Origin: Candidatus Altimarinota bacterium
GTDB taxonomy: Bacteria > Patescibacteriota > Gracilibacteria > BD1-5 > UBA2023
Direction: 5' to 3'
DNA: 61,096 nucleotides
Assembly (NCBI GenBank): GCA_043769645.1
Contig: JAYVJC010000006.1
Location: 1 to 61,096, forward strand
Shown here: positions 9,715 to 60,359 of the stretch, one piece after another
Numbering within the stretch: the first letter of the stretch is position 1
Layout of the letters: each line of letters starts with the position of its first letter
Translations under genes and position numbers: made by a program
The notes under the pieces: generated by a model
Databases searched by the model: none
Told to the model about the DNA's origin: nothing
The model's input: only the letters and a program-made list of their open reading frames with translations

Positions 9715-9751
9715 AATCAATACCTGCCTCTTTTCTCTATAATTTTCCCGC

Positions 9752-10411: not shown

Positions 10412-10471
10412 AAATGAACTATCGGTATTTTTGATACACTACACTATTTTCAGTCCTCTCTTCTCCATCTT

Positions 10472-17360: not shown

Positions 17361-17362
17361 GA

Positions 17363-18964: not shown

Positions 18965-19010
18965 GGAAATTAATAATTAAAAATTAATAATGCAGAATAT
19001 ATATAACAAG

Positions 19011-20621: not shown

Positions 20622-20710
20622 CGAGATAAAAATATGATTCTATTATGAGAAAATCTGTATCTTTTGCAAGATTGGCTCGTTTTCTTTTATCAGGATGAGA
20701 AACGAGTCGT

Positions 20711-25108: not shown

Positions 25109-25163
25109 TTTCATTGCATTTTTGACTATTTCTCATACGATATTCTATATAAACCCCTGATAC

Positions 25164-25826: not shown

Positions 25827-25849
25827 AATAAATTGATTATAAGATACAA

Positions 25850-26368: not shown

Positions 26369-26452
26369 ATCTTCTAATTATAATCACCTCACCCGAACTA
26401 GAACTCACATTTTTGATAGAATCAGAAGTTATTATTTATCAGAAAGGATATG

Positions 26453-26482
26453 TGAAGGCTGAATTTGTACTGGTGTTTTAGT
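26453..26482. repeat. direct repeat copy 2 (degenerate duplicate of the rsmI 3' end)
   Basis: gtgaaggctgaatttgtactggtgttttag. Upstream codons read ...EVIIYQKGYVKAEFVLVF*, which compares with the rsmI end ...EVREYYKGEGKVKGEFVLVF*. Confidence 0.75.
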
Positions 26483-26518
26483 AGAGAATTTGACTGATGA
26501 GGGAAAGTATGATAGATT

Positions 26519-29320: not shown

Positions 29321-29411
29321 AAGTATATATTTTCTTGTGTTTTTAGATTTTTATTTATAATCCATCTATCCGAGCTACAACTCGCGTGTTTATTCTATAG
29401 TCGCAACTATT

Positions 29412-30542
29412 ATGGTTTCCCAGCTCAATGCTCGGCACAAGCCGAAGTATACCCTTTTGACATTTTATAAATTCGTCGATATTCCAGAGTCTGAACTTGA
29501 TAGAGTCGCGCAAGAACACCTGGATTTCACTCGAGATATCGGCCTTCGAGGACGTGTCTATATAGGCACTGAGGGTATCAGCTCCACCGTCACCGGAAAT
29601 GAGTGACAGTGCTGGGCCTATCGGCAGTTTCTTGAAACATCACAGTATTTTCGAGATATCCCCGATATTGATAGTAAGGCCACCTCAGTAGATAATCATG
29701 AGTTTCCTCGGATGAGTGTGAAGATTCGCAATGAAATCGTCACATTTGGGGTAAAAGTCACAGCCGAGCAAGTACAAAAATACAAGAAAGAACTTACACC
29801 AGAGCAATTCAAAGATATCCTCGAATCCGAGAAAAAAGCTGACTATGTGATTCTTGACATGAGAAATGACTATGAGTACCGACTTGGTCACTTTAAGAAC
29901 GCTATCCCCGCAGGAACGGTCAATTTCCGTGAAGTCCCGAATCTCCTCGAGCGGTATCATGAGCTCGCGAAGGGGAAGAAGGTCATCTGGTACTGTACGG
30001 GAGGGATTCGGTGTGAGAAGGCTGCTGTTCTCGCGAACGAGCTCTCGGATACCGAGTTCTACTCGATACAGTGATGAGTGGTCAAGTATGTCAATGAATT
30101 CAATGATGGAAACTGGCTCGGGAATCTCTATACCTTTGATGGTCGCGTCTCAACAGCCGTTGGTGATGCACAAACTCATACGACAATCTGAGAATGCCTC
30201 TATACTGGGGAAAAAACTGATAATTGCGAAAATTGTCGATATGCACCATGCAACGCTCGAATGATCGCAACTCCATCGGCCTATAAGAAGCATATGGGTT
30301 TCTGTTCGGAAGCTTGTTACCAGAGTGCTCGCCAGGATGGACTTGTGAAAGTAGTCCCATGGGATAAGCTCGATTATCTCTCACTTGGTCGTGAAATGCG
30401 AAACTCCCCCTTATTAAATGGAAATGGGGTGATTTTGCACCCAGTAATAGAAAAAATCCAGAAGCATCTCGATTCCAAACTTTCCAAGATCGAATGGAGG
30501 TATAAAATGAGTCAAAAAGAAGAAGAAATAATCGAATGTTAA
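29412..30542 (+). CDS. trhO: rhodanese-domain tRNA uridine(34) hydroxylase TrhO (YceA/UPF0176)
   Basis: Contains ...LTFYKFVDIPE..., GRVYIGTEGISSTV and a rhodanese active-site loop (YCTGGIRCEKA). Three track ORFs (29412.., 29712.., 30261..) are joined by TGA codons, with the frames checked. Confidence 0.85.
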
Positions 30543-30597
30543 AATAAATTGACTAATTATAATTAGTATATATTATATTTCAATTATTATTATTTTT

Positions 30598-31089
30598 ATG
30601 TTTATACTGACGACTTCATGAGTTCTTGATGGAAATATGGACTGACATGCTTGAGTTACTTCCTCAAACGTTATTCGTCCTGTAAAATTAGAAAATTGAG
30701 TAAAAGTTGATACTATTCTATCATCTCTGAGAGGGACTTCTATATCTAATGCAAGAGAAGCAAGGAAATATTTGATCGAACTCTATCCAGAACTTGAAGA
30801 AATACTCTGAGAAAATCTCTGAGAAGATGATCAAGTAAAAGCTGATACAATTATCATGTCTTTTTTTGAAGAGTTTAGTTGAGTAGATTCAGTTCTTACG
30901 AATCAAAAAAATGCGGTCAGGGAAACTATCAAGAATTGGGCCAAAGAGGAATCAGTTAAGCTTTATGAACGAGAATACTGAATTTGAAGCTTTACTGCTT
31001 GAACCTCGCCAATGCAATTAAAGTTTTTATGGATATTCTCAACGAAGTTATATAGTTTATCATGAAATTCTGGAGGGTGGCTTAAATAG
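30598..31089 (+). CDS. hypothetical protein (TGA-dense)
   Basis: ATG at 30598 and TAG at 31087. It has 163 codons, about 11 of them TGA. A strong terminator follows it. Confidence 0.4.
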
Positions 31090-31110
31090 CTATGACTTTA
31101 GTAAATGTTT

Positions 31111-31141
31111 GAACCCCGCCATAACAGCGGGGTTCTTTTTG
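31111..31141 (+). terminator. rho-independent terminator
   Basis: gaaccccgc-cataaca-gcggggttc followed by ttttt. Confidence 0.75.
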
Positions 31142-31183
31142 TGGGAAAGGTAGAGTTTTCTACTTCCTTTTTCGGAAGGGATC

Positions 31184-31390
31184 TTAGTGTCCATTGAACA
31201 ACCAAAGGAGTGGAACGAAAAACAGCTTCCAGAGGAAAAGTCCGACGACTATTGCATCTATCAAAAACCTAGTTCCTAAGGATAGCACAAACCCAAGTAC
31301 TCCCCAAAGAATTGGGGAACCTCCGAGGTAGTTGGAGATCAGGCCAAAAATCAATGCAACTACTGTTGCAAAAATAGTAAATTCCTTCAC
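31184..31390 (-). CDS. small membrane protein (68 aa)
   Basis: Track ORF with a GTG start and TAA stop. Two or three hydrophobic helices. It is preceded by an unusually GC-rich structured leader. Confidence 0.5.
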   Translation of the reverse strand: MKEFTIFATVVALIFGLISNYLGGSPILWGVLGFVLSLGTRFLIDAIVVGLFLWKLFFVPLLWLFNGH

Positions 31391-31505
31391 GGGATACCCC
31401 TTTCCCTGTCCACCTCACCGTGAATGGGAGAATCGTGACCGCAGTGAGCGGGTGGGCGAACGCCCGAATTCCCCAGCCACTTATAAGCTGGACCTATATA
31501 TAATA
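31391..31505 (-). promoter_or_regulatory. GC-rich structured 5' leader (candidate cis-regulatory RNA, unclassified)
   Basis: On the minus strand it has CCAGC-uuauaagug-GCUGG and GGGC-guuc-GCCC hairpins. It also has a long interrupted helix (CCACC..CUCAC / GUGAG..GUGG) and a GGGA...UCCC element next to the GTG start. It stands out against AT-rich flanks. Confidence 0.3.
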
Positions 31506-31567
31506 CTTTATTAACGATTGTATGTCAATATTTTGCAAAAAATATAAATTTATAGTAACATCAAGAT

Positions 31568-32572
31568 ATGTCATTAAAACCTCAAAATGAAATAACAGTG
31601 CAATTCCAAAATATTGCAGCATGACTCAATGACGGTGCTCGATATAGCACTGAATGATCATGGCAGTTTTTCGTATCACAATCACCAGAAGAAATATATG
31701 ATAACTTTCGTACACATATTGATCCAATGATAGATCCAATATTAAAACAGGATTCAGACGTAGTTAGTTTCAGTGAAGTTTTTGGAGTAAGACAAAGAGA
31801 TTACATAAAGGCAAAACTCGAATGACTTGGCTATACCGTATATTTTACCGATGCATTTGAGATGTGGAGTCAGATGGTAGAGGGGGAACATCTTTATAAT
31901 ATGGTCTGAATAAAAGAAGATAAGTTATGAAAACCGGAAGTTACTCATCATGAGTTTAGAAATAAAAGAAAAATTGAAGGGGTAGCATTTGCTATGAATT
32001 ACCTATTCCCCGTTCTTCCGTATACTCCAAGAAATAATAATACCCAGAAAGTATTAGCCCATGTATGAAATAGAGTAAAAGATATTGTGAATTGAGAAAG
32101 AGGTATTCAAGTCAAGACGAGTCCAGAAATTGGAAAAGCAAAAGCTATCTATAATAGACTTGCAAACGGAATACTTGATTGAGCTATAACAGTTTTAGAT
32201 TTTGATTGATTTACCTTTGCAACTGGTCATGTCCATAAGTTTAATTATGAAGTCGTCAGAAAACTAGAAGGCAGTATCTCAGATAAACCATTTATGCTTC
32301 TCTGAGATATGAATGTAGATGAATGAGATATCATAAAAACACATCCTCCATTTGCTACTCCAGACTGGAAAAGTATTCTCGATCCAAAAACACGTACATT
32401 TTGATTTCGTGCTAGGAGATGACTTGGAAATAGAATAGCAACGGAGTTATCGCATTTTCAGCCAGATGTTTTAGTAGCAAAGTGATTTGATGCCCAGCGA
32501 GTAACAACAGTAAGATCTAAAAGTGATCATGATGGAATTGCTGCAACGATGACCTACGATAAAGCAGGATAA
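31568..32572 (+). CDS. endonuclease/exonuclease/phosphatase (EEP) family protein
   Basis: ATG at 31568 with 14 in-frame TGA codons; TAA at 32570. LLGDMNVDE and a C-terminal SKSDHDGIA resemble the EEP catalytic motifs. It is absent from the standard track. Confidence 0.6.
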
Positions 32573-47833: not shown

Positions 47834-48019
47834 CTATATTGTGGTGAAAGTAAAGAAAATCGACTGAGAATTTTTGGTCGCTGACTCCTCTCCGTACATC
47901 GTGATATCTCCGGAATCTTCACCGAGAATATTTGACTTCGGACAGAGATCCATATAATTAGAGGCATGAAACCAGAAACTACTCTCATCCAAAAGCAAGA
48001 TGCGGGACTCCTTGCTCAT
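47834..48019 (-). CDS. small hypothetical protein upstream of lexA
   Basis: ATG at 48019 and TAG at 47834; 61 aa (MSKESRILLLDESSFWFHASNYMDL...). It is co-directional with lexA. It competes with a plus-strand reading frame that starts at the same CATG. Confidence 0.3.
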   Translation of the reverse strand: MSKESRILLLDESSFWFHASNYMDLCPKSNILGEDSGDITMYGEESATKNSQSIFFTFTTI

Positions 48020-48046
48020 GGCGTCGCCCCGTATGCACGCGTATAG

Positions 48047-48295
48047 CAAAACGCCCAGGATGGTGTCGCTAATATCCTTGGATTCAAGTCTTCAGGGAAT
48101 TTCGCAGCTACCGTAACTGGTGTCGGACTTGTCTCTCTCGCGGTTGCCGGAATTCTTGCTCCTCTACTCGCAGTTCCCCTGATGGGTGCGGCTACAGCAG
48201 TCACTACAGCAGGAATCGGATGACTGATAGAAAATGATATAACTAAACGTATTGCCAAATCTGACGAACCGAGAATCCGAACGTACAAAGTCTAA
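48047..48295 (+). other. Gly/Ala-rich transmembrane-like reading frame without a usable start codon (gene remnant, frameshifted gene or unusual start)
   Basis: Frame 2 reads ...NILGFKSSGNFAATVTGVGLVSLAVAGILAPLLAVPLMGAATAVTTAGIG-G(TGA)-LIENDITKRIAK...YKV* and ends 1 nt before a plus-oriented terminator. The only in-frame ATG is at 48182, and a TAG at 48044 closes the frame upstream. Confidence 0.25.
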
Positions 48296-48319
48296 TCCTC
48301 CTCGATGGGGGATTTTTTT
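48294..48319 (+). terminator. rho-independent terminator
   Basis: aatcctcc-tcgat-gggggatt followed by tttttt. Confidence 0.65.
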
Positions 48320-48722
48320 GGAGTAGGAATATTTTGAAAAAAATCGACTATGTTATGAATAGGGTGAAAATGAAAGAAACTATTTGAGTTTTTTGAGCCC
48401 TCGAAATGACTTTATAAGAAAAGTATCAGAAAATTATCGAACTCATCAAAGACCTTTACTGTGAGCCTACACTATGGGGGATGATGAAATAAGAGGTGTA
48501 CTATTACTTAGTACAATTATCAAACTCAAAATTGACGATGAAAAAAGGCTCTACATAAAGCAAAAAGAGCCCTTTCAGGCTCTCTCAGAGTGTATTTTTA
48601 CTTATGGCAGTACCGCAAGGATGCCTATCGGACTATTTTAATGAGATTTATTGAGACAATTAAGGGAGTAGATATGAAGGAAATAGAGAAACTACATTCT
48701 CTTTGTAAAAAGAAAATGTAAC

Positions 48723-48881
48723 CTATGCTACTATCTTGATAAAAAAATAATTTCTTGGTAATGATTTTTTTAGTCTTGCCCTAGTAGTAGGATCAGTCTC
48801 AGTTTTGAGAAGTTCTATCTTTTTCTTATAGTCTATTTCCGAGACTATGATGTTGTCTATGAGTTGATCGCGTTCTGTCAT
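48723..48881 (-). CDS. small phage hypothetical protein (52 aa)
   Basis: Its ATG overlaps the amidase stop (TAATG). It is the last gene of the lysis cassette. Confidence 0.3.
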   Translation of the reverse strand: MTERDQLIDNIIVSEIDYKKKIELLKTETDPTTRARLKKSLPRNYFFIKIVA

Positions 48882-49429
48882 TATTGTGCTTTAGGAGTAA
48901 GTTTTGATTGATAGTCATGCCAGCTTGTATATCCTTTTTCCCAGAAAGATTTTGCTATGTCTACTTTCCGAGTTTTACTCACACCATCCCATAACTGTTT
49001 TTTTTGGCTTCCTTGCCACGTGAGATCCGCGTGACGAAGTACGTTCTCCTTTGGAATGTTGAACACGGCCATCAGGTGTTCTATGAGTCTTTTGACCTCG
49101 AACCGTTGAGCATCCGTGAAGTCAGGTCAAATAGTCTCTATTCAGAGTGAGTGAAAGTTGAGTCCAGTGATACTTCACCAGTTACTCTGTCCAGCGTGCC
49201 AGCATACCATTTTTGGATCTGCGAGCTTGTATGAGGATCCATCACCGTCTACTATGAAGTGACACGATACTTCACTGGTCTTTGTGAGTCCGAGAAGGGT
49301 CTTGAGGTTCCCTCCGAGTGTACCTTGTACCGTCCCGGTATGGTGAACAATGATATAGTCGCATGTATTCTCTATTCACTTTGTGAAGTTCTTTTGCTGT
49401 GCGGATAAGTCTTGTTTGAATGGATACAT
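48881..49429 (-). CDS. N-acetylmuramoyl-L-alanine amidase (Amidase_2/PGRP-type endolysin)
   Basis: Contains DYIIVHHTG, CHFIVDGDG, CWHAGQSNW-G(TGA) and NFHSL-G(TGA)-IE. It joins track ORF 48881..49072 to upstream codons through 4 TGA. 549 nt. Confidence 0.8.
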
Positions 49430-49430
49430 A

Positions 49431-49631
49431 TTATGGGTAGTTATGTTCGTTGGCTTTTACGAGATCGAGCTCTTTGCGGATATCATGAATCTCGAAGAGG
49501 AGTCCATCGAGGATACATTTCATCGCTTTACGTTCTGTATCAGATACGACTTGAGAAGCCATAAAGACTTTATCGTATCGATGTTGGAAATGGAGGAGAT
49601 CAGCTTCGAGGAGTGATTTTCGGAGTAACAT
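49431..49631 (-). CDS. phage hypothetical protein (66 aa)
   Basis: Intact track ORF, packed between neighbouring genes. Confidence 0.45.
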   Translation of the reverse strand: MLLRKSLLEADLLHFQHRYDKVFMASQVVSDTERKAMKCILDGLLFEIHDIRKELDLVKANEHNYP

Positions 49632-49635
49632 AGGA

Positions 49636-49818
49636 TTATCTTAGGAAGTTATACCCGGCGAATACTTGGCCTGGTTCGAGTTGCCGGGCCTCGTCATCGT
49701 CTACATGTTTCCGCTCTGCCCTTTCGAGTACTTGCGTTGCCCGTTCCTCTGTCTGAGCCTTGAGAAAGCTCGCGACGTGTTTCGGGATTGTTCAATCTTC
49801 GTATTCGAGTGTTTCCAT
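49636..49818 (-). CDS. phage hypothetical protein (60 aa)
   Basis: ATG at 49818, one TGA, TAA at 49636; 183 nt. Confidence 0.4.
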
Positions 49819-49822
49819 AGGT

Positions 49823-50206
49823 TTAATGGTAATTGAAGTAATCTTTTCCACCGATCCGAACTGCGTAGTAGAATATGAGAGCTAGGAGGGTGTATTTTAT
49901 TACCGATATCCCTACCGCATTTTCTATATCTTCGATTATCCTTTTGAAGAACCCCATATCGCATTCTTTCCGTCTCGCCTCGTCACCGCCCTGCCAGTAG
50001 GTAAAATCGTGAATATTACAGTCCGCTTGCCAGAATACGAGTCTTAGGCGCTTGAGGCTTTGCAATATGATCCACCGTATGAGCCTGTTCTTTACTTGAG
50101 TTCCAGTACCACCGCACCCATTACATACCCCATTGACTCTGAGAAATTCCCACTCCCATTTCGTGAGGCTTTTATAGTCTCGAGATTTGAAGTCCTGAAG
50201 TGTCAT
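49823..50206 (-). CDS. phage protein with prokaryotic phospholipase A2-like motif, putative
   Basis: Intact 127-aa ORF. NGCGGTG is followed by CNIHDFTYWQGGD...CDMGFFKRI, which resembles the C-x-x-HD-F-x-Y active site of bacterial and viral PLA2 domains. Confidence 0.4.
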   Translation of the reverse strand: MTLQDFKSRDYKSLTKWEWEFLRVNGVCNGCGGTGTQVKNRLIRWIILQSLKRLRLVFWQADCNIHDFTYWQGGDEARRKECDMGFFKRIIEDIENAVGISVIKYTLLALIFYYAVRIGGKDYFNYH

Positions 50207-50520
50207 TATTTAGTAATACGTGTAAGGATTTCCTCGAGTTGCTTTGATTGATTCTCGAGCTTTTTAGAGTGTCATTCGTGCCAATTATTCGAGGTTTGGA
50301 TCTGAGTGATAAAGGTATCTGATATCTTCTTGAGTTCTTCTCGAAAGAATTGATTTTGTTCAAAGGAAATTGTTTTGAAGTTCGTAAGTACCTCTTCGAA
50401 TTTCAGAGCCATATAAGGGATGCCTTTGAACATAAACCCAAAGAACGTTCCTACAAATAAGAGTCCTATTATTCAGTTCTGTGAGAGTAGTTGAGATGCG
50501 ATATGGTCTATTGATTCCAT
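50206..50520 (-). CDS. holin-like single-TM phage protein
   Basis: ATG at 50520 with two TGA codons. TM helix IIGLLFVGTFFGFMFKGI followed by a charged coiled tail. Its stop overlaps the next ATG (TAATG). Confidence 0.4.
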
Positions 50521-50548
50521 TATTGATTAAGTGGTTAGTTATAAGTAT

Positions 50549-51349
50549 TTATAAAAAAGACAAAAAAGAAGTATTAGCAGATGATGCTGTCGATGAAACC
50601 ATAGTAAATGTACCAGAAGAAGTAAAAGTATGTATAGTCTGTCATCAACTTGAGGTTATGGTTCCTCAAGTTGAAGTAGGAGACACTCCATCACTTCAAT
50701 TAGTAGCGTAAGAAATAATAACTATTCCTGATCATCCTGTTCCTCCAGTTCAAGCATTAGCACCTCACCCTCATCATCCAAGTCAATTTGTACCATTTCC
50801 TGCGGTTCAAAAGTTTGCAGCTCATGTACCTCAACCTCAAGTTCCTCAAGCCCCTCCTCCACCGTTTCCTCACCCTCACCCTCATCCTCAATAAGTCACC
50901 GCACTTCCACTAATAGAGTAACTTATCCCATTTCCTCAAGCACTTCATACGTTAGTTCCAGGTGTCGAAGACGCTGATCACGCACCTCATCATCCTGCTC
51001 CACTTCACGAACCTGTATTTCAGTTCGCTCCAGCGTTTCATTGTCCTCCAGTTCATGAAGCTCCTGTGGAAACACTTCACCATCCTCATCCTCATCCAGA
51101 TCATCCAGTTTGAGCGGAAAAAGCTGAATCAGAACCTCACCTTCATCACCCTATTGCGGTAAGTGAAGAGAATACAGAGTTAGTCCCACTTACGTGTGGT
51201 ATTCCTCAAGTTCCCACGGTTATAGAGTAGGATTGTGGAGTTACTGTAATTGAAGCTGAGTATAAAACTCCTCATGCTCCACCTCATCCAGGAGCTGAAT
51301 CCCCTCCTCATCCTCATCCCGCGACTACCAATGCTTTTACTGTTGCCAT
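50549..51349 (-). CDS. glycine-rich phage protein (tail-fibre-associated glycine-rich domain type), 266 aa with 40 TGA codons
   Basis: All 267 in-frame triplets were checked: no TAA or TAG before 50549, and 40 TGA codons. Starts MATVKALVVAGGGGGGDSAPGGGGAGGVLY, continues ...ITVTPQSYSITVGTGG..., and ends ...GTGGSGIVIISY... No minus-strand ORF is reported here by the standard track. Confidence 0.75.
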
Positions 51350-51350
51350 A

Positions 51351-51869
51351 TTATATATTTTGTCAAATAATATATCCTTGATAGATTCAGGCAGAAGTAC
51401 AAATAAAGCCAAAAGTATCTATTTTACTAGCTGTTGTGGTAAGAGTTGGCACAGTACCTCACACCCACTTAATAGTATTAAACCAGGTTACTGTTCGACT
51501 TCCAGTAGCATCTTGTATAAGGTCTATTACTATCTTGTCTCAAGGTAATATATTGTTTAATGCCAGAATTCTATTCCCCCCAAGAGTTACTCGATGGTAG
51601 TCTCATACATTCTTGTCAAACGTTATAGTTGCCCCGTCAGTATCTGTTACTATAGCACCCTTGATACTCGCAATTATTGGAGTAGTAAGTGTTTTATTCG
51701 TTAGAGTTACTGCTCACGTAGTAGTTACATAAATAGTATCAAAAACCCCTTTGAAGAGGTTATATATTCCTTGCCACGTCGTACTTCCAGCAACTCCACC
51801 TTGAGAAGCTGGAACTACGTCAGTTAATGCAGGAGTTGTGATGGTTGGTAGATTTGGAATTGTTGGCAT
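51351..51869 (-). CDS. phage fibre/receptor-binding-like structural protein (hypothetical)
   Basis: ATG at 51869 with 6 TGA codons; TAA at 51351, frame checked. Thr/Gly-rich beta-type sequence. It lies 1 nt upstream of the glycine-rich gene. Confidence 0.55.
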
Positions 51870-51874
51870 CTTTC

Positions 51875-52285
51875 TTAGAGGTTATCAGATACAGTCAAAG
51901 TGATCGTGACATTTCCTGTGGTATATGCAGTGATTTTAAACCCGATCCACCTGAGAATTGTCTGACGAGTATTGATCATATATTGCTTTGTTCCATCACT
52001 CGCACCAGAGTATACAAGACCTGTAGTTCCATTGAGAGTCGTGTTTGAATCTAGATCGATGATCTGCACAGGTGCATACTGATTTGTAGCAGATGATGCT
52101 ATAGTAAAGTCTGGCTTTGTTTCCTGAACTGATCCTAGAACCTGGACGGTAAGATTAGCAGAACCTGCTGCAGTTATTGCAAAGACTCCATTGATATAAT
52201 CTTGAAGTTGTATTGTTTTTCCACCAATGAGACCGAGTGTAGAAGCTGTCGAGAATGCGGTTGTTTGTACTTGTTTGACGGACAT
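51875..52285 (-). CDS. phage structural hypothetical protein (136 aa)
   Basis: Intact track ORF with a beta-rich Thr/Ser/Gly composition, downstream of the capsid gene. Confidence 0.5.
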   Translation of the reverse strand: MSVKQVQTTAFSTASTLGLIGGKTIQLQDYINGVFAITAAGSANLTVQVLGSVQETKPDFTIASSATNQYAPVQIIDLDSNTTLNGTTGLVYSGASDGTKQYMINTRQTILRWIGFKITAYTTGNVTITLTVSDNL

Positions 52286-52347
52286 ATGTGTATTTGTTAG
52301 AAAATTATTTCCTTCCTCCCCTCTCGAAAGAGGAGATAGGAAACAAC

Positions 52348-52758
52348 TTATATTGCGTTAGCAGTAGAGTTGGTATCAAACTGGATGAACTTACACGTCA
52401 CAGTCGCTACACCCGCACCTGTACAGGCACCAACAGTAGAAGATATGGAGATAAATTTTGTTCCAGCAGGGACAGTGACTTTTGAGCCTTTTACTGTAGC
52501 AGTCCTGAGATCTACTACAGCATTTGCACCGAGTCCAGATATGACAGTCGAGTAGAAGATCACACCATCTGCCTTGAGCTGAAGGTTTGTTCCTGTAGCA
52601 AGACCTGTGGCATCTGTACGGACAACGACCTCATCAAGGAGGAGACCGTTACCGATACACTGGATGATGTTGGTATCAGAAGTCAGGATGGCAGATGATG
52701 TAACATCTTTCTGCACCTGGAATGTACCGAATCCAGTTGAATTTGGAATTGTAGCCAT
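52348..52758 (-). CDS. phage structural hypothetical protein (136 aa)
   Basis: Intact track ORF. It is followed by the hairpin cctct-cgaa-agagg (52320..52333) in the 62-nt gap. Confidence 0.5.
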   Translation of the reverse strand: MATIPNSTGFGTFQVQKDVTSSAILTSDTNIIQCIGNGLLLDEVVVRTDATGLATGTNLQLKADGVIFYSTVISGLGANAVVDLRTATVKGSKVTVPAGTKFISISSTVGACTGAGVATVTCKFIQFDTNSTANAI

Positions 52759-52777
52759 GGGATTGAAAGATTAGAGA

Positions 52778-53785
52778 TTAAACACCTGTACCGTTTGAGA
52801 ACTTGACCCAACGACCTGATACAACAGCCATGATGATAGATGCGTGAGCACCGAATCTCCAGTTTTCTGTTGAAAAGTCTTCACCGTTATTTCCTTCGGT
52901 AGGAGTCTTGAGATATGGAGCCTCAGCAACACCAAATTGAAGTTGAGAGTTTGCGCTTGAAGCGATTCCCCAATATTTTGCCTTGGTAGTATCTGGAGCA
53001 CCAGTTGCAGTAGTAGCGACGAGAGGAAGAATGACGTGAGTCATACCGCCCTTATAGACGTTGTAGGCACCAGCATTTTGAGATGTTGGATTTGCAGTAG
53101 AGTTGAGAAGCTCTTGAACCTGATTGATCGTGTTGCGGTCATCAGTTGTCCAGATAATATCAAACTTCATAGTGAGCTTGAGACCGATATTGTTATAGGT
53201 CTGCTCAACTGCAACCTTTTGAGCTGCTTCGAGTGCACCCTTAGAGAAGAGTGGATTTGAAGGGATGATGTTTGAGTAAGTCGTAGACGAACCAGTGAGG
53301 GCGTGAGACGTAGAAGCGAGAGCGACGTTGTCACCAGTCGTGATATCGACGAGCTTTCCTTCTTGGGTTGTATAAGAAGTAGAGTATGCGAAACCAAAGC
53401 GGTGAGAGAGGTCGAGCTCCATACGAGCTGTACACACTTGAGAGAGATCAGTGAGTTTCTGAACGACATCAGCGTTTTTGTTGAACTTTCGTTCCTCAAC
53501 GGTGATGGCGATTTCGAGACCGATACGGTAGATAGACGCTGCCTTTTCAAGACCGTATTGAACGACTGATTGAGCAGTATTATCACCTTCATCCTTGATA
53601 CGAGCATAGATGTCGCGATCAGGAAGTTCGGCAAAGATTCGACTTTGTCCTGTTCCGAGTGGAACTGGAACGTTTTTCACGAGACCTGATTTCATGAAGT
53701 TTTGATCCACGGTGTCAGGTCATGCGACGAATACGCGATTGACCACATCAGTGAGTTGTGGCATCGTAATGGTAGAGAGTTGCAT
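52778..53785 (-). CDS. major capsid protein, putative
   Basis: 335 aa. Track ORF 52778..53710 is extended through one TGA to ATG 53785. The call rests on its size and its position after the scaffold-like and small head genes and before the fibre genes. I did not verify the fold. Confidence 0.6.
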
Positions 53786-53811
53786 ATGTATTTGTATTTA
53801 TAGAATTAAAA

Positions 53812-54309
53812 TTATGCTGTGACAATGTTCGGCATCGCAAATGTACCAATTCCACGAGTCGTAGAGATGAATCCACCATTCGGAGAGATGATAAATTGGT
53901 TACCATTCGTTGCGACTGCGACACCTGTAGCTGATGCAAGCGCACACGTGCGTCCTTGCTGTGCAGCTGAGTGTGTACCAGAACCAACGGTGAAGTAACA
54001 GCGAGATACACCTGGAGTTTTTGGCACCCAAACTGATTTCATTTTTCCAGCTGTTGCATAGTCTGCATCAGTAGAAGCGATTGGTTCAGCGAGAATACCT
54101 GCAAAGTTTTGACCGTTTGCAAAGGTCGTAGTTGCTGCAGTGACATACCCTGTTGGGTTTGAAGCGGTTACTTCAGTCATTACTGCAGAACCATCAGCGA
54201 TAACAACAGAGGCTTTCATAGGCATTTGCTTGAGAAGCCATTCTCCCTCCATAGGGTAGAAGTTTTGCGTTTTGTTCGCTCGGTTGAGAGGAGTGATTAC
54301 GGTAGGCAT
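53812..54309 (-). CDS. phage head-associated hypothetical protein (possible decoration protein)
   Basis: Intact 165-aa ORF immediately upstream of the capsid gene. Confidence 0.4.
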   Translation of the reverse strand: MPTVITPLNRANKTQNFYPMEGEWLLKQMPMKASVVIADGSAVMTEVTASNPTGYVTAATTTFANGQNFAGILAEPIASTDADYATAGKMKSVWVPKTPGVSRCYFTVGSGTHSAAQQGRTCALASATGVAVATNGNQFIISPNGGFISTTRGIGTFAMPNIVTA

Positions 54310-54339
54310 ATTTGTATATGTATAAAGAAATAATTGGGA

Positions 54340-54726
54340 CTATTCACCAAGGACTCTGCGGAAATCAGAGAGACGAACACGAGAAGCTTTTATCTCAGCA
54401 GGCTCATCACCTGTCATGCCAAATGCGGTTGCATACGCATCCATTTCTTTGTTCTTTATGGATTGAGCCAGCTTTCGGCTGATCATGTCCATGCGGAAGA
54501 ATTCTACATCGTGAGACTCGCATATAGATATGAGGTCTTGGACGATATGGAACTCGATGAGATCTGAGTACGCAGAAGGATCGAGAGACTCTTCTGTTTG
54601 GTTGTATGAGAGGTTTTTATCTGTGAAGATTGCTTCTGTACCGTCTTCGAATGAGACGAGAGAGCTTGGTATTTTTTGACCATCCAGAGGAGTGATCGTT
54701 TTTATTTGTTTGTCTCCGATGAACAT
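54340..54726 (-). CDS. phage hypothetical protein (128 aa)
   Basis: Intact track ORF ending in TAG. Confidence 0.45.
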   Translation of the reverse strand: MFIGDKQIKTITPLDGQKIPSSLVSFEDGTEAIFTDKNLSYNQTEESLDPSAYSDLIEFHIVQDLISICESHDVEFFRMDMISRKLAQSIKNKEMDAYATAFGMTGDEPAEIKASRVRLSDFRRVLGE

Positions 54727-54737
54727 AGGGTGATTGA

Positions 54738-55271
54738 TTAGTTGATATAAAGTTCAGGAACCTCGAACTCTCCGTGAGGAGTATTTTTGAACGTCCAGAA
54801 TTTGTGATTCTTCATGATCTTTTCCACTCCCTTATTGTTAAATGTGAGTGTGTCCATTCGGACATCGTTGATCTCGTGAAGCTCAAACCCTTCTGACCAT
54901 TCAAGAAGTTGCGTATAGAGGTCGTAGTCGACTTTCTCAGTTTCTCAGTCACTGAATGTGAGGAGGACTTCGTGCAGGTTGATATACTTATTCGTGACAT
55001 TATTTTTGACAGTCTGCATTGCGACAGTTTCCACTTTCACAATAGGTTTTCCGTTGTAGATTTTGTAGCGAAACGACCAGAGTGGTCATGCGTATTTCTC
55101 CTTGCTTTTTGTATTGGTATTGATGGTTCCGTTTTCCTTGAGTTCTTGATTCTCTTTTTCGAGTTTTGCAAGTCTTTCAAGGATTTGTGCTTGGAAGTCG
55201 TCTTTTTTAGGGACTCCAGGCGTATTTTCCTGACTATTTGTTTGTGTAGTTGTTGGGTTTTGCTTAGCCAT
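54738..55271 (-). CDS. phage hypothetical protein (177 aa)
   Basis: Track ORF 55086..55271 continues through TGA at 55086 and 54945 to TAA 54738, checked codon by codon. The N-terminal part is a coiled-coil. Confidence 0.5.
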
Positions 55272-55279
55272 ATATGATA

Positions 55280-55999
55280 TTATTTCTTAGAATATAAATG
55301 TCAGAGTCAGAGAGATTCAGCGAGTTCTTTCCCGCTATTTTTATCGTCTGGCGCTGGCTGTGAACTTCATCGACCGAGAGAAGCTGTTGATCCGAACATT
55401 GCAATGTTGAGATCGGCTTTTCCTGATACGATTTGTTCTTTCTGAGCGTAGAGAGTTGCCATTTCTGCAAATTCACGAGCTTCAATTGGAGCAAGGTCAC
55501 GTCATTCTGTGAGTTTCTTATACAGTCACTCGGCAGTTGTTCTCACTTCACCTGTGAGGTGAGTAAAAAACTCTGAAGCTTCTTTGTGAACACCTTCGTT
55601 GGCGAGCTCTCTTTTCAGTCGTTCTGCGAACTTCTTATATTGAGTCTCTTCGTCGAGAGGGTTCTCGTCCTTCTTGGAAGCTGGAGCAAGTTTGATTTGA
55701 TCGAGCGCTTTTTCGAGCGTGAGATTCCATCATTTCTTTGCTACATCTTTTGCGAGATCTGGGTCTTTTTCGCTTAGCTCTAAGAGATAAGCATTATCCT
55801 GTGAGACTTTTTCGACAGCGACATCAAGTGCCTTGTCATATCGAGCCTTGTAGGCGATAGCTTCTTGAGTACTTCCAGCATATTGTTGCTTGAGGCGCTC
55901 ATGGGCTGCGGCTAAGTCATCGTTTTTTTGAGACTGCGATCAGTCTTGAGGGTTGTCCGCGTTCGGAGCCTCCTTTTTTTCCTCTTGGTTGTCCAACAT
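55280..55999 (-). CDS. scaffolding-like phage protein (239 aa, helical and charged)
   Basis: ATG at 55999 with 7 TGA codons; TAA at 55280; 720 nt. The sequence is highly charged with predicted helices, and it lies between the portal and capsid genes. Confidence 0.5.
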
Positions 56000-56102
56000 A
56001 GGGGCAAGGGGTTAGTATGTAATAAGCTGTCCCATTTGGGAGGTAGCTATAAGTGAAGCGTACTTCGTGTCTTCTTACATCAAGAAAAAAAACTATTTTT
56101 CC

Positions 56103-56399
56103 TTATTTTTTGTGGTTTTTCTCCAACTCTTCGTACTTCTTGACCTGCTCTTCCATATCAGAGAGCTCATTTGCAAAGCCTTCTATTGCATTGATGAGCC
56201 AATAGGCTGGAGTTTCATTTCATTGGAAATTTCATGATCCGAGTTGTGCTCGGACTCCATCGATTTTGATTTGAAAGTACTTTTTGAGGATGTCTTTTCC
56301 CTTGATAAGAAACTCGGCTTCATCTTTGCTGATCGTGTGATCCTTTTCGATCTTGAGAGTTTTGAAGGCATCAGCGGAGAGAATATAGAATTGAGACAT
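56103..56399 (-). CDS. phage hypothetical protein (98 aa)
   Basis: ATG at 56399 with two TGA codons; TAA at 56103. It starts 3 nt after the portal stop. Confidence 0.45.
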
Positions 56400-56402
56400 A
56401 GA

Positions 56403-58358
56403 TTATTGGGTTACAGAAGTAGTATTGGTCGGAGCTTGTTCTTGTTGTGTCGGTACTCATTGCGCTGGTGGTTGTGGTGCTTGTGTAGGGGCTCATCCAG
56501 CTGGTGGCATTCCTGACATTCCACCACCCTGATCCTCACCACCCATTGCTTGAGCTTGGATATCAGCGATGAGTTGTTGTTTTGCTTGGTTCACTTCCTC
56601 TGGATCATCTCATGATGTTTGAGTATCGATGTCGAATAGTCTTGCGAGTTCTTTGATCGTTGACTTCTCTGGGATGATAGAGTCGAGATTTGGGATACTT
56701 GCATACGCATTCCCCACGGTGACGAGACGAGTGAAGAAGTCGAGCTTCTGTTCTTTCTCCACTTCATTGATCGTTGGAGCATTGAGGTTCGTAAAAATAT
56801 TCATACAGATCTTTCCACGGATGAAATCTGGCTTCACTTCGAGAAGTCCTGACTTTGGAGATTTGCTGAACTTTCCTTTCACATATTTCTCTCACTTCAG
56901 AGGAATGGTTGGATATGTCGGAGCAATATCTTCTTTCGGTTTGTTGTCGTTATCCACTTCGATGAGTTCTCGAACGAGCTTGATAGGAAAGAAGAGTTGG
57001 AGATTGTCCTTGTGGAGATTTCCCAGTCGGACGAATGCAGAGTCTCTATTGGTGAGAACTACATTCACACGTTGGAGAGAGCTTTCCTTCTGTACTGCGG
57101 TTTGATATGCAGTCTGTTGAGGATTCCCCATGATATTTCGGATGTCGATACCTGTATAGATAGCAATATCCGTGAAGATCGACTCCATGTAGTTGAAGAT
57201 GGCTTGATTCGGAGGATTTCCAGAGAGTTGGTTGAAATTCCCATTTCCTAGATTTCCCTTGAACTTGAGCATCTGGTTTCCATAGGCGAATTGGTTTCCA
57301 TCGAACTCAAGGTTTCCACCGATTGCAATGACCTGATTATTGCTTCGCTTGATAGCATCCATGAGCATCTCGCGAAGGTTGTTGAGGTCGCTCTTGAATG
57401 TCATAAGGATCTCACAGAGTCCTCGTCCATAGACAGAGAATGGATTCTTTGAGTATTGACGGATAACGAATGGGAGAGACTTCGAAGCATTGAGGATTGG
57501 ATGTTCTCGGATAATGACAGCATCATTTGCCACCTCGGCATACATATCTGCCTGACAGTCCCAGTAGTGAGTGATTTTCACATACTTTCCGCTCGATTCT
57601 CCTCGTTCTTCCTTGGTGACGAACTGGCGAGTATCTGCGTTGTAGATGTAACTTCCAACGATAGCGTCGGTGTTCTTGTAGACTTTGTTGAACTTGTAGT
57701 TTCGGAACTCTTCTTCTGGGATGTATTCGATAAAAACACAATCCACAGCATCCTCGATACTCTTGGCTTTATCATCGACGAAGAAGTTTCTGATATCCAC
57801 ATTCTCGAGGAGAATACGATTGGTGTTCTGCATCTTGCGAGTGAATGTGACATCTCCATTCTCGGAGATGGTTGGCTCATTGATGACGCGATATTTCATC
57901 TCGAATCCTGTATAGAGAACAGAAGTTCCGAAAATAGCGGTCACATATTCATTCTCGAGGACTGCGGAGTCTCGATTGTTCGTAGACCAGTCATAGTCCC
58001 ACACCTTTTCGAATGCTTCGGCTTGCTTTGAATAGTTCGAGTTTTCTTCCTCTATTTTGAATTGTGTCTTGCGCTTCACTGCCTCAGCAACGAAGAGCTC
58101 GACGATTGCCATCTCGAGAGGAACTTGAGAGCGTGATCGTCCATCCTCGTATGGAACATATATTGCGTCCCACATTTTTTGGTAGAGATCCCAGTACTTA
58201 TCGACTGCGGTTCGTTTGGCACGCATTGTCGTGAGTCGTCGTCCAATATGTCCCACGAGTTTCGATTCTCGATCATCATTTTGATGAGGATCTGTGATGA
58301 ATGGTTCGAGAACATCGAGCGTATTCTTTTTTGTATCTATAGTGATTTGTCCGTCCAT
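56403..58358 (-). CDS. portal protein, putative (651 aa)
   Basis: Track ORF 56892..58358 ends at a TGA and continues in frame through ORF 56610..56882 to TAA 56403 (1956 nt). The call rests on its size and its position directly after the large terminase. The C-terminal tail is Gln/Pro/Gly-rich. Confidence 0.65.
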
Positions 58359-58370
58359 ATTTGTATAGGG

Positions 58371-59972
58371 TTAAATATATTTGTATTCCATCTCTCAAGT
58401 GAGAGGGTTGGCTATCTGAACCTTGGTCTTTTCTTTCTCCTTCGGAACTCACCATTTTGCGAGGTAGTTCACGAGGTATTCGAATGCGGTTCGTCCGTGG
58501 GAGAATTGGTCGTGTTCGACTCTCGGATTGTCCTTTGTGATGAATTTGTCACCCATCTGGATTCCTTCGAGCTTCGAGTTCATAAGACAGTTGACGAGAT
58601 CGATAGTCTTTTCATTAAATCGACACCTGTAGAGATTTGCTTTTGTAGTTCGTATCTGTTCTTGCTTATCGAGGGTGATATCCGTGTTGAGGAATATCTT
58701 GTTGTCCTGGTAGTACTCGAAGATGGTTTTGTCAGCTCTCTCTGATGGTTTCGAGTGAGTGTCGTATGGATCTGCGATGTACTGGTGCGGTTTCTTGTAG
58801 CGAAGGTATCTCATATAGAACTCCAGTACTGCTCACTCCATAGGATTCTTGGGTTGTTTTCCGAGGAATGCAGCACACTCTTCTGGGATGATGGGGATTT
58901 CGATATAGTCGATGAAGTTCCAGTAGTGTCCTTGTACCTGCATCACGATGATGGCGTTTGGATCGACTCAAACGTGTGAGTTGTCTATTCCGATATAGAG
59001 AGGAAGACTCTCATCATATTCGAATACTTCGATCTTCCCTGTGATCTCTGGGTAGACTCGTCACTCGACCGAGGCGTTGTAGTCGATATCCAGTTCTTGT
59101 GCGATTTTCTGTGGTGGATCTTTCTTCTTCTGCGCTTCATACCATTCCTGTGTATAAAAAGGATGTTCTGACCAGTGGATTCGATGCCATCGGAATATCC
59201 CTTTCTCTGCCTTTGTCTTCATAAGGTAATATTCATTCCCCATCCCTGCTGGGGTAGAGTTGAATATTCGGCACGGTGTCGCACGAGAACAGGCAGTGTT
59301 CACGCTCGAAGCATTCGCCATACTTGCCATCTCATCAAGAAATATTGCATTATATGTTCCTCATCGTCCTGCATTCGGATTTGCTGATTCCCCTTGTATA
59401 GATCATGAACCATCTCATCTGGAGATATTCATACTCTTGTTGAACTCTGTTCCTGTATTCTTGTTGAATCATTTTGGAAGGAGCCACGGAGGAAGATTGC
59501 GCATCATGAATCGGAGCTTCTCGAAGTGTGATCGCATATCTCCAGCCTTGTCTACGTCAGACTCTTTCTGAGAGAGTGTGAGATACTTGTGATTGTGAAA
59601 GAGGTATCCATAAAGAAATACACCAAGTATGAGCCATGTGAGACCCATTTGACGTGATTTTTCGATGAATACATCGGTCGGGATAGGAACACCTTCTTCA
59701 TTGAATCGTGAAGTGATTGGAAGTGCTCCTGTTTGAATTGCATCCCAAAGATCAACAATAAATCCCCTTTGAAAATCAAAGAGAATGAAAGGAACTTCGT
59801 TCGGATATTCTGAACCATAAAAACCACCGTTTCGATCGGTGAAAAGAAAGTAATCAAAGAAAAATGTGATATCTCGTCGACACTGCTCGTAAACATAAGC
59901 GCGAAAGGTGGAATCTTTGCACTTATCCAGGAGTTTTGCTCTCGCTTCTATGTTCTGTCGATACGTTTGCAT
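58371..59972 (-). CDS. terminase large subunit
   Basis: 533 aa with 9 in-frame TGA codons joining track ORFs 59469.., 59061.. and 58449.., with all junctions translated. Contains ...GESANPNAGR-G(TGA)-GTYNAIFLDEMA... (ATPase Walker-B-like) and a C-terminal nuclease-like half. Confidence 0.8.
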
Positions 59973-60020
59973 AGTTTTATGCTATTTCATATCTTCTTAC
60001 ATCAAGTTTTTGGACTTATT

Positions 60021-60064
60021 TAGAACTTTTCTTGGATAAAAATAGAACTTTTCTTGGATAAAAT
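60021..60064. repeat. 22-bp tandem direct repeat x2
   Basis: tagaacttttcttggataaaaa / tagaacttttcttggataaaat. Confidence 0.85.
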
Positions 60065-60152
60065 GAGAATATTTGGGAAAGTTCGTGTATGTGACGTGTA
60101 GGTATACCAATTTCTATATAAATGTATCCCAATAGGATATATACACGAACTG

Positions 60153-60184
60153 GTGAGAATTAAGTGAGAATTAAGTGAGAATAG
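60153..60184. repeat. 11-bp tandem repeat x3 (gtgagaattaa)
   Basis: gtgagaattaa gtgagaattaa gtgagaatag. It is flanked by copies of the 10-mer ATACACGAAC at 60141..60150 and 60218..60227, plus an inverted copy at 60081..60090. Confidence 0.85.
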
Positions 60185-60359
60185 TTCGCGTGCCTTCTGG
60201 TTATATCAATATGGCACATACACGAACTCGATGTTTATAAATGTTGAGAGAAAGTTTATCAACTATTTATAAACTTTTTATTTGGCTTTGTAATACCGAG
60301 AGTTAAAGGAAATTAAAAAAAGTCTTGACTTGCTCTTGTTGTAAGAAGACAACAATTAT

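What the first reader, a model, noticed from the sequence alone, without database searches (positions are those of the whole stretch)
50549..51349. Glycine-rich phage protein in which 40 of 266 codons are TGA; the opposite strand mimics Pro/His-rich ORFs
On the minus strand this stretch reads as one open frame (all triplets checked). It runs MATVKALVVAGGGGGGDSAPGGGGAGGVLY...GGGRGGS...GGSGGGGGWG...GGGGGGGNGGGGAGGTGGGG...GGTGGSGIVIISY... This pattern is typical of the glycine-rich domain proteins found next to phage fibre genes. About 15 percent of the codons are TGA, so under the standard code the gene does not exist. The plus strand then yields misleading ORFs (50481..50711, 50962..51162) and a Pro/His-rich frame (PHPHHP...PFPHPHPHPQ). 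It is an extreme case of a recoded stop codon being the preferred codon for the dominant amino acid of a protein.
Basis: seen in the sequence. Interest (0 to 1): 0.65.

Follow-up and report, generated by a model that had tools for sequence, protein, structure and literature searches.

The report
TGA-rich glycine-rich phage tail gene
This is a real gene of a phage-like element in a Gracilibacteria genome, where TGA means glycine; it encodes a member of a known glycine-rich domain family that probably sits at a tail-fibre tip. It is a vivid but ordinary example of the already described genetic code 25.

Summary
On the minus strand, 50549..51349 is one frame of 266 sense codons ending in TAA. It has 40 in-frame TGAs and no internal TAA or TAG.

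TGA means glycine here (genetic code 25).
- With TGA=Gly the product matches Pfam PF21722 (Gly_rich_2) at 46.9 bits. With TGA masked it still passes the cutoff (27.8 bits). With TGA=Trp the match is lost.
- 22 of the 40 TGAs sit at columns that are at least 90% Gly in 110 standard-code homologues.
- In host housekeeping genes, TGA aligns with conserved Gly motifs.
- The host is a Candidatus Gracilibacteria genome (GltX 91% identical to a MAG).

The gene lies in an 11.4-kb phage-like late operon. It directly follows a tail-fibre-like gene and precedes the lysis genes. That fibre/Gly-rich gene pair recurs in two other code-25 phage contigs. I infer a fibre-tip adhesin; this is not demonstrated.

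The "extreme case" claim is overstated. TGA supplies 43% of Gly codons here, against about 17% elsewhere in the window. A relative has 45 TGAs in 261 codons, and the enrichment is not a family trait.

Code-25 prophages dense in TGA are already published. One practical point: public catalogues hold relatives mistranslated with Trp, and several have lost their Pfam annotation.

The parts
50549..51349 (-). Glycine-rich domain protein gene (266 aa, 34.6% Gly; 40 TGA=Gly codons; stop TAA). It has the PF21722 domain at residues 3-214, a C-terminal beta module (GSGIVIISY...TIHTFTSSGTFT) and a short hydrophobic tail (..NTSFLSFL).
51351..51869 (-). Tail-fibre-like protein (172 aa). It is the upstream partner; its stop lies 1 nt before the Gly-rich gene's ATG. 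Its conserved C-terminal domain reads ..DATGSRTVTWF..W.GG..PTL..D.FGF..IGQN.
   Evidence: PHROG tail-fibre families 9017, 22179, 7760 and 19976. 47% identity (E=4e-33) and 39% identity (E=3e-17) to the genes directly upstream of the Gly-rich genes in L001 and L003.
50206..50520 (-). Small protein (104 aa) with one hydrophobic segment (IIGLLFVGTFFGFMF). Putative holin.
   Evidence: Position and sequence only; no family hit. Inference.
49823..50206 (-). 127-aa protein of unknown function, phrog_6098.
   Evidence: E=2.4e-5.
48881..49429 (-). N-acetylmuramoyl-L-alanine amidase (endolysin).
   Evidence: PF01510 at E=1.5e-20; PHROG amidase and endolysin families.
52778..53785 (-). Probable major capsid protein (335 aa).
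   Evidence: Weak phrog_1650 hit (E=0.0027) and position. Tentative.
56403..58358 (-). Portal protein (651 aa).
   Evidence: PF23899 SU10_portal, 33.2 bits against a cutoff of 30.
58371..59972 (-). Large terminase subunit (533 aa).
   Evidence: phrog_2 at E=1e-20; PF03237 at E=2e-4.
48534..48630 (.). Left junction of the phage-like element. The assembly graph branches here, and depth drops from 24.3 (host flank) to 16.7 (element).
50481..50711 (+). Spurious table-11 ORF, antisense to the Gly-rich gene.
   Evidence: no Pfam match.
50962..51162 (+). Spurious table-11 ORF, antisense to the Gly-rich gene.
   Evidence: only a sub-threshold DUF2784 hit at E=0.024.

Best explanation
SHOWN. The window is a Candidatus Gracilibacteria genome segment that uses genetic code 25 (TGA=Gly; TAA and TAG are the only stops). 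It carries an integrated phage-like element from about 48.6 kb to beyond the window end. The element's late operon on the minus strand runs TerL, portal, capsid genes, a tail-fibre-like gene, this gene, a holin-like gene and an amidase. The gene at 50549..51349 is real and encodes a 266-aa member of Pfam PF21722 (Gly_rich_2) / phrog_2295. Its 40 TGA codons are ordinary glycine codons, many at structurally invariant Gly positions.

INFERRED. The protein folds into a compact, ordered domain with little alpha or beta structure, built from about ten glycine-rich motifs (GGGGxGG type). These probably pack as polyglycine-II/PPII helices, as in the distal domains of phage S16 gp38, cyanophage Pam3 gp24 and Bxb1 tail-tip proteins. 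It has no N-terminal anchor domain. It most likely attaches through its conserved C-terminal beta module and hydrophobic tail to the fibre protein encoded just upstream, and acts as the distal adhesin (receptor-binding tip) of the virion.

The high TGA density is mainly arithmetic: the protein is 35% Gly in a genome where TGA is a normal Gly codon. A locally raised TGA share (43% against about 17%) adds to this. That rise is best explained by short GGATGA hexamer repeats and/or mosaic origin of the fibre module, not by a conserved selective rule.
For: Code.
- Long-ORF coverage rises from 29% to 88% when TGA is read through.
- X-masked GltX, a flavoprotein and Pol IV place TGA at conserved Gly motifs (PSPTG, HIGG, FVTGGGV, GYTGG, NKPxG) and never at Trp.
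- GltX is 91% identical to a Gracilibacteria MAG.
- UGA to Gly in this clade was shown by proteomics (Hanke 2014, cited in PMC11452946).

Gene and family.
- PF21722 scores 46.9 bits with TGA=Gly, 27.8 bits with TGA=X (cutoff 24.3), and gives no hit with TGA=Trp.
- phrog_2295 scores 154.5 bits (Gly) against 65.4 (X) and 68.8 (Trp).
- There are 1187 homologues.
- TGA columns are Gly in 72-79% of standard-code homologue cells, the same as GGN columns. 22 of 40 TGAs are at columns that are at least 90% Gly, and 4 of the 9 invariant Gly columns are TGA-encoded.

Phage context.
- TerL, portal and amidase are identified.
- The module is an 11,450-bp unitig at a different depth from the host flank.

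Tail role.
- The upstream gene hits tail-fibre PHROGs.
- The fibre/Gly-rich gene pair is conserved in L001 (after tape measure and baseplate genes) and in L003 (before a holin-like gene).
- An AF2 model of the standard-code homologue P0065 has pLDDT 92.5 and is mostly non-helix, non-strand.
- The best PDB fold hits are phage tail parts: Bxb1 tail tip 9D93 (E=3e-3), Pam3 fibre 7YFW and the CBA120 tailspike N-terminus. 9D93 and 7YFW are described as PPII-bundle domains like S16 gp38 (PMC13243192). The Pam3 Gly-rich domain is assigned to receptor recognition (PMC9608196).
- BFVD holds 99 viral hits, often fused to collagen, ConA-lectin, FN3 or PA14 modules.
Against: - No experimental function exists for PF21722. 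phrog_2295 is annotated 'unknown function'.
- PDB fold matches are weak (TM 0.25-0.33, E of 3e-3 or worse).
- A sequence profile finds no solved structure.
- PPII geometry could not be measured, because model coordinates are not exposed.
- The model is of a homologue (56% identity in the alignment), not of the target itself.
- The module lacks recognisable tail tube, adaptor or baseplate genes in the window, so the virion architecture is unclear.
- No integrase or att repeat was found in the window.
- No RNA or peptide data exist for this locus.
- No GenBank phage relative was found by tblastn.
Confidence: 0.8

Rival explanations
1. TGA encodes tryptophan (table 4), and the product is a Trp/Gly-rich protein, as public catalogues translate its relatives.
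For: Closest database relatives are stored with 12-18% Trp. The Trp version still scores 68.8 bits on phrog_2295.
Against: The Trp version loses the Pfam hit entirely, and on phrog_2295 it scores no better than the X-masked version. The W positions of relatives are TGA codons that align with Gly in standard-code homologues (2138 Gly cells). TGG is used separately for Trp (129 codons in host genes). TGA aligns with invariant Gly in GltX, the flavoprotein and Pol IV. The host is Gracilibacteria.
Confidence: 0.01
2. Standard code applies. The minus-strand frame is not a gene, and the plus-strand ORFs or the Pro/His-rich frame are the real products.
For: Two plus-strand ORFs of 66-76 aa exist under table 11.
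Against: They have no significant family match and start with GTG. The Pro/His frame has 5 stops. Under table 11 only 29% of the window is covered by long ORFs. The TGA-masked minus-strand product passes the Pfam curated cutoff. All surrounding genes of the operon are on the minus strand.
Confidence: 0.01
3. The Gly-rich protein is real but is not the receptor-binding tip. It could be a tail-fibre assembly chaperone or another non-virion accessory encoded downstream of the fibre gene, or a structural decoration with no receptor role.
For: Genes directly downstream of fibre genes are often assembly chaperones (for example Pam3 gp25; PMC9608196). PF21722 function is untested, and the PHROG is 'unknown function'.
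Against: Known fibre chaperones are helical or beta-sandwich proteins, not Gly-rich lattices. Homologues carry the domain fused within long fibre-like proteins with collagen, lectin, FN3 and PA14 modules, tailspike N-terminal anchors or pilin N-termini. In those the domain is part of the exposed fibre itself.
Confidence: 0.13
4. The raised TGA share (43% against about 17%) and the TGA/GGN alternation in Gly runs are selected. Possible reasons are spreading decoding over two tRNA-Gly pools, avoiding G-runs and repeat instability, or locking the gene to code-25 hosts.
For: Enrichment against host genes (p=3e-8) and against other phage genes (p=1e-9). Alternation in adjacent Gly pairs is 35 against 11, permutation p=1e-4. 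The longest G run is only 4.
Against: It is not reproduced in relatives. L001 has 35% against 36% in its neighbours. L003 has 30% against 62% in its neighbours. There is no alternation in L001-L003 (p 0.58-0.81). There is no general Gly-adjacency effect in this genome (20% against 17%, p=0.46). The alternation coincides with short hexamer tandem repeats, which suggests slippage history.
Confidence: 0.1

Closest known systems
Pfam PF21722 (Gly_rich_2) / UniProt 'Glycine-rich domain-containing protein' of tailed phages, giant algal viruses and bacteria; phrog_2295
   Same: Near full-length match to the domain profile (positions 16-225 of 226) above the curated cutoff. It has the same conserved Gly columns and the same GSGIVII and TIHTFTSSGT motifs. 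Fold-level matches to 99 viral proteins.
   Different: It is a minimal stand-alone version with no N-terminal anchor or shaft. It has a short C-terminal hydrophobic tail shared only with other code-25 relatives. 43% of its Gly residues are encoded by TGA.
Code-25 prophages and phages of Gracilibacteria and Absconditabacteria (Liu et al. 2023, mBio, PMC10746230)
   Same: A phage-like region with terminase, portal and tail genes in a Gracilibacteria genome. Its ORFs carry dense in-frame TGA and are unreadable under table 11.
   Different: That paper does not single out the Gly-rich fibre-associated gene. Here one gene reaches 15 TGAs per 100 codons, against about 1.2 elsewhere.
Polyglycine-II / PPII-bundle receptor-binding domains: phage S16 gp38 (6F45), cyanophage Pam3 gp24 (7YFW), Bxb1 tail-tip gp33/gp29 (9D93)
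   Same: Repeated GGGGxGG-type motifs. A location next to, or at the end of, a tail fibre. An ordered predicted fold that is neither helix nor strand. Weak Foldseek hits to 9D93 and 7YFW.
   Different: No detectable sequence homology. TM-scores are only 0.15-0.33. The PGII geometry and the receptor role are not verified for PF21722.

Membership tests
Pfam PF21722 Gly_rich_2 | Whole-protein score at or above the curated gathering cutoff (24.3 bits), covering most of the profile | tested here: met
   46.9 bits, E=4.5e-12, profile positions 16-225 of 226 with TGA=Gly. 27.8 bits even with all TGA masked as X.
Pfam PF21722 Gly_rich_2 | Conserved glycine columns shared with family members | tested here: met
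   9 invariant and about 45 nearly invariant Gly columns across 110 homologues are all Gly in the target. 22 of 40 TGA codons fall at columns that are at least 90% Gly.
Genetic code 25 (Gracilibacteria/Absconditabacteria) | In-frame TGA in conserved genes aligns with Gly, not Trp or stop | tested here: met
   GltX, flavoprotein and Pol IV alignments. Family alignment statistics. Pfam scores for Gly, X and Trp versions.
Genetic code 25 (Gracilibacteria/Absconditabacteria) | Organism belongs to the clade known to use the code | tested here: met
   GltX is 91% identical to a Candidatus Gracilibacteria MAG and 65-75% identical to many others.
Genetic code 25 (Gracilibacteria/Absconditabacteria) | tRNA-Gly with anticodon UCA present; release factor 2 absent | not testable with these tools
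   There is no tRNA gene in the 61-kb window. The rest of the genome is not available.
Polyglycine-II (PGII/PPII bundle) phage adhesin domains (S16 gp38 type) | Multiple glycine-rich motifs of GGGGxGG type | tested here: met
   About ten motifs in the table-25 translation.
Polyglycine-II (PGII/PPII bundle) phage adhesin domains (S16 gp38 type) | Motifs form a stacked lattice of PGII helices in 3D | tested here: inconclusive
   The homologue model is confident (pLDDT 92.5) and largely non-helix, non-strand by DSSP. Foldseek hits to 9D93 and 7YFW are weak, and torsion angles could not be read.
Polyglycine-II (PGII/PPII bundle) phage adhesin domains (S16 gp38 type) | Sequence homology to gp38 or gp24 | tested here: not met
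   The family profile finds no solved structure at E of 1 or below, other than spurious linkers.
Polyglycine-II (PGII/PPII bundle) phage adhesin domains (S16 gp38 type) | Located at the distal fibre tip and binds the host receptor | not testable with these tools
   Only gene order supports it.
Integrated prophage | Phage hallmark genes (terminase, portal, capsid, lysis) in one block flanked by host genes | tested here: met
   Host S24 peptidase and Pol IV genes lie to the left. The unitig has a different depth from the host flank.
Integrated prophage | Integrase and att direct repeats at both ends | tested here: inconclusive
   None was found in the window. The right end lies beyond the window.

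The most novel reading that the evidence does not exclude
The stand-alone Gly-rich protein and its conserved upstream fibre partner may form a two-component receptor-binding cassette specific to phages of code-25 CPR bacteria. In that cassette the unusually high and locally alternating TGA use would be selected. Possible reasons are to balance two tRNA-Gly pools during a burst of late translation, or to keep the adhesin untranslatable outside code-25 hosts.
Probability: 0.1. Interest if true: 0.55.

Novelty: new member of a known kind. Interest (0 to 1): 0.3.

Why it matters
The finding is a clean, checkable illustration of code 25 in a phage late gene. It shows that the TGA-decoding tRNA-Gly must be efficient enough to read 40 sites in one 266-codon message.

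It also exposes a practical annotation problem. Gene callers that choose only between tables 11 and 4 store such proteins with 12-18% Trp in place of Gly. For this family that is enough to erase the Pfam assignment in 5 of 9 relatives seen here.

Finally, it nominates a candidate receptor-binding cassette (fibre plus Gly-rich tip) for phages of uncultivated Gracilibacteria. That could guide host-range or RBP-based cell-labelling work. None of this changes current understanding of the code or of phage fibres.

Tried and rejected
- Structure prediction of the target itself: the tool refuses table-25 translations, so a standard-code homologue was modelled instead.
- tRNA and Rfam scans of the window: nothing found.
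- IMG/VR search with TerL: no relative.
- tblastn of the whole protein and of its C-terminal module against GenBank phages: no match, partly because of low-complexity masking.
- NCBIfam: no model hit.
- PDB by sequence profile: only spurious Gly-linker hits.
- RNA-seq evidence: only one DNA run holds the locus.
- Idea that TGA/GGN alternation is a family rule: rejected, because it is absent in three relatives.
- Idea that Gly-rich genes are generally TGA-enriched over their neighbours: rejected.
- Idea that TGA is favoured next to other Gly codons genome-wide: rejected (p=0.46).
- Idea that the ORF-poor GC-rich patch at 47.9-48.3 kb is a structured RNA integration target: no Rfam hit and fold z=0.17.
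- Defence-system search of the TGA-rich island: no hit.
- The Bxb1 structure paper could not be read.

Full report
**1. Observation**

The minus strand of 50549..51349 reads as a single frame of 266 sense codons followed by TAA. It contains 40 TGA codons and no internal TAA or TAG. Gly codon counts are TGA 40, GGA 34, GGT 10, GGG 8 and GGC 0. TGG occurs once.

The plus-strand table-11 ORFs 50481..50711 and 50962..51162 exist. One plus-strand frame is Pro/His-rich, with 52 P and 28 H, and includes PFPHPHPHPQ. That frame is the mechanical consequence of reading (GGA TGA)n on the other strand. None of the plus-strand products has a significant Pfam match.

**2. The genetic code**

Treating TGA as sense raises coverage of the window by ORFs of at least 150 aa from 29% to 88%. 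Releasing TAA or TAG instead gives only 41-48%.

I masked TGA as X in three housekeeping proteins and aligned them to solved structures. In GltX the masked positions fall on PSPT-G, HIG-G and LM-G. In a HI0933-like flavoprotein they fall on FVT-G-GGV and GYTG-G. In Pol IV they fall on NKPx-G. None falls on a Trp.

TGG is used independently for Trp, with 129 codons in host genes. GltX is 91% identical to a Candidatus Gracilibacteria MAG and 65-75% identical to many others. Gracilibacteria are the clade in which UGA to Gly (code 25) was established, including by proteomics (Hanke et al. 2014, cited in PMC11452946). No tRNA gene lies in the window, so the decoding tRNA could not be seen.

**3. 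The gene is real and belongs to a known family**

| Reading of TGA | Pfam PF21722 (cutoff 24.3 bits) | phrog_2295 |
|---|---|---|
| Gly | 46.9 bits, E=4.5e-12, profile 16-225 of 226 | 154.5 bits |
| X (masked) | 27.8 bits | 65.4 bits |
| Trp | no hit | 68.8 bits |

The family assignment therefore does not depend on assuming the code, and the code assignment is independently favoured by the family.

A search of 5.8 billion proteins returned 1187 homologues, almost all annotated PF21722. In an alignment with 110 standard-code homologues, TGA columns are on average 79% Gly and GGN columns 80% Gly. 22 of the 40 TGAs lie at columns that are at least 90% Gly. 4 of the 9 invariant Gly columns are TGA-encoded.

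**4. Relatives and a database artefact**

The nearest full-length relatives (P0001-5, P0008, P0010, P0013, P0044) are stored with 8-18% Trp. I fetched the DNA of three of them. It shows that these Trp residues are TGA codons.

| Locus | TGA | TGG | GGN | Gene length |
|---|---|---|---|---|
| L001 | 33 | 0 | 61 | 285 codons |
| L002 | 45 | 2 | 38 | 261 codons |
| L003 | 29 | 6 | 69 | 442 codons |

The proteins were translated with table 4 instead of table 25. Five of the nine carry no Pfam annotation in the database. This mirrors my control, in which the Trp version loses the hit. The window's gene is thus one member of a recurrent TGA-rich subfamily, and it is not the most extreme.

**5. Context**

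The gene lies in a minus-strand late operon:
- TerL, 58371..59972.
- Portal, 56403..58358 (SU10-type).
- Scaffold- or capsid-like genes, including a probable major capsid protein at 52778..53785.
- Two small genes.
- A 172-aa tail-fibre-like gene, 51351..51869.
- The Gly-rich gene.
- A holin-like gene.
- A phrog_6098 gene.
- An amidase endolysin, 48881..49429.

To the left are host genes for an S24 peptidase and Pol IV.

Logan contigs of the only public run that holds the locus (a sediment metagenome) reproduce the sequence exactly. They resolve the module as an 11,450-bp unitig (48601..60050) at depth 16.7, against 24.3 for the host flank. The two are joined through branching unitigs at 48534-48630. 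This fits an integrated element carried by roughly two-thirds of the population. No integrase or att repeat is visible in the window, and the right end lies beyond it.

**6. Function**

The upstream gene matches several tail-fibre PHROGs. Its C-terminal domain is conserved in the genes directly upstream of the Gly-rich genes in L001 (47% identity, E=4e-33) and L003 (39% identity, E=3e-17). In L001 the pair closes a tape-measure, baseplate and fibre series. In L003 it precedes a holin-like gene. Fibre followed by Gly-rich protein is therefore a conserved cassette.

The target itself could not be submitted for modelling. An AlphaFold2 model of the standard-code homologue P0065 is confident (pLDDT 92.5, pTM 0.86). 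It is mostly neither helix nor strand.

Foldseek against BFVD gives 99 viral hits at E of 1e-3 or below, named 'Glycine-rich domain-containing protein'. They come from uncultured Caudovirales, pelagiphage HTVC025P, cyanophages and prasinoviruses. Many are fused to collagen repeats, ConA-like lectin, FN3 or PA14 modules.

Against the PDB the best hits are weak but all are phage tail parts:
- Bxb1 tail tip 9D93 (E=3e-3).
- Pam3 fibre 7YFW (E=0.19).
- The CBA120 tailspike N-terminal anchor. This matches P0065's extra N-terminus only.

9D93 and 7YFW are described as PPII-helical bundles resembling S16 gp38 (PMC13243192). The Pam3 Gly-rich domain, with GGGGxGG motifs and variable distal loops, is assigned to receptor recognition (PMC9608196). 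Some cellular homologues carry prepilin N-termini, which is again a filament-tip setting.

I therefore infer a distal adhesin that caps the upstream fibre. This is inference. The family has no tested function, and a sequence profile finds no solved structure.

**7. Codon usage**

| Gene set | TGA share of Gly codons |
|---|---|
| Host genes | 18.2% |
| Other genes of the phage module | 16.4% |
| Target gene | 43.5% |

The target differs from the host genes at p=3e-8 and from the other module genes at p=1e-9 (binomial tests). Within Gly runs, TGA and GGN alternate: 35 mixed pairs against 11 same-type pairs, permutation p=1e-4.

Neither feature generalises.
- L001's Gly-rich gene equals its neighbours (35% against 36%).
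- L003's is far below its neighbours (30% against 62%).
- No relative shows alternation (p 0.58-0.81).
- There is no Gly-adjacency effect in the rest of this genome (p=0.46).

The alternation coincides with short GGATGA hexamer repeats. The 15% TGA density is thus mostly a 35%-Gly protein in a code-25 genome, plus a local history effect.

**8. Comparison with what is known, and verdict**

Code 25 is established. Code-25 Gracilibacteria and Absconditabacteria prophages with dense in-frame TGA are published (PMC10746230). PF21722 is a curated family.

This is a new member of known kinds. The exception is the claim of extremeness.

The residual value is threefold: a teaching-grade example, a concrete warning about mis-translation in catalogues, and a candidate receptor-binding cassette for phages of uncultivated Gracilibacteria.

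Noticed in passing
window 24572..32572 (+): ORFs 24572..25108, 25850..26368, 26519..29320, 30598..31089, 31568..32572: This block of hypothetical genes uses TGA for 56% of Gly codons, against 18% in the other host genes (Fisher p=6e-20). The 933-aa ORF alone has 41 TGAs. GC is lower (0.37-0.38). There are no Pfam or PADLOC hits. It may be a foreign island from a TGA-richer code-25 donor.
   Followed up: partly
window 48534..48630 and 48601..60050: In Logan contigs of the source run, the phage-like module is a separate 11,450-bp unitig at depth 16.7, against 24.3 for the host flank. There is a small bubble at the junction. The element appears polymorphic, present in about two-thirds of the population.
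   Followed up: partly
window 60021..60063 and 60080..60228: A tandem 21-nt direct repeat (AGAACTTTTCTTGGATAAAA x2) with very high k-mer depth (103.8), followed by 27-28-nt inverted repeats. Both lie in about 0.9 kb of non-coding DNA just upstream of TerL. This may be a regulatory or packaging region.
   Followed up: no
window 47900..48325: An ORF-poor, GC-rich patch (up to 0.555 GC) ending in a terminator-like hairpin (48293..48319), next to the element junction. There is no Rfam match (best E=0.29) and no excess folding energy (z=0.17). Its nature is unresolved.
   Followed up: yes
proteins P0001-P0005, P0008, P0010, P0013, P0044; loci L001 6023-6880, L002 72-857, L003 938-2266: Public protein catalogues hold relatives translated with table 4 (Trp for Gly, 8-18% Trp). 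Five of the nine have no Pfam annotation as a result.
   Followed up: yes
window 15762..22771 (-): Four tandem paralogous Cys- and Trp-rich ORFs (532, 504, 536 and 686 aa) with similar N-termini (CxxC ... F.I...D..F..K(L/V)SP). Function not examined.
   Followed up: no
window 7211..11407 (+): A cluster of pseudopilin-like genes with GFT(I/L)VE-type N-termini (8426..8998, 9752..10411, 10472..11407) after a multi-pass membrane protein. It is a likely type IV pilus operon. Some PF21722 homologues elsewhere carry the same prepilin N-terminus.
   Followed up: no
window 50549..50740; C-termini of P0001-P0013, P0044: Code-25 relatives share a C-terminal extension (..TFTMVASS..(T)AN..F(L/M).F) that is absent from standard-code homologues. 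It may be a docking peptide for the fibre partner.
   Followed up: no
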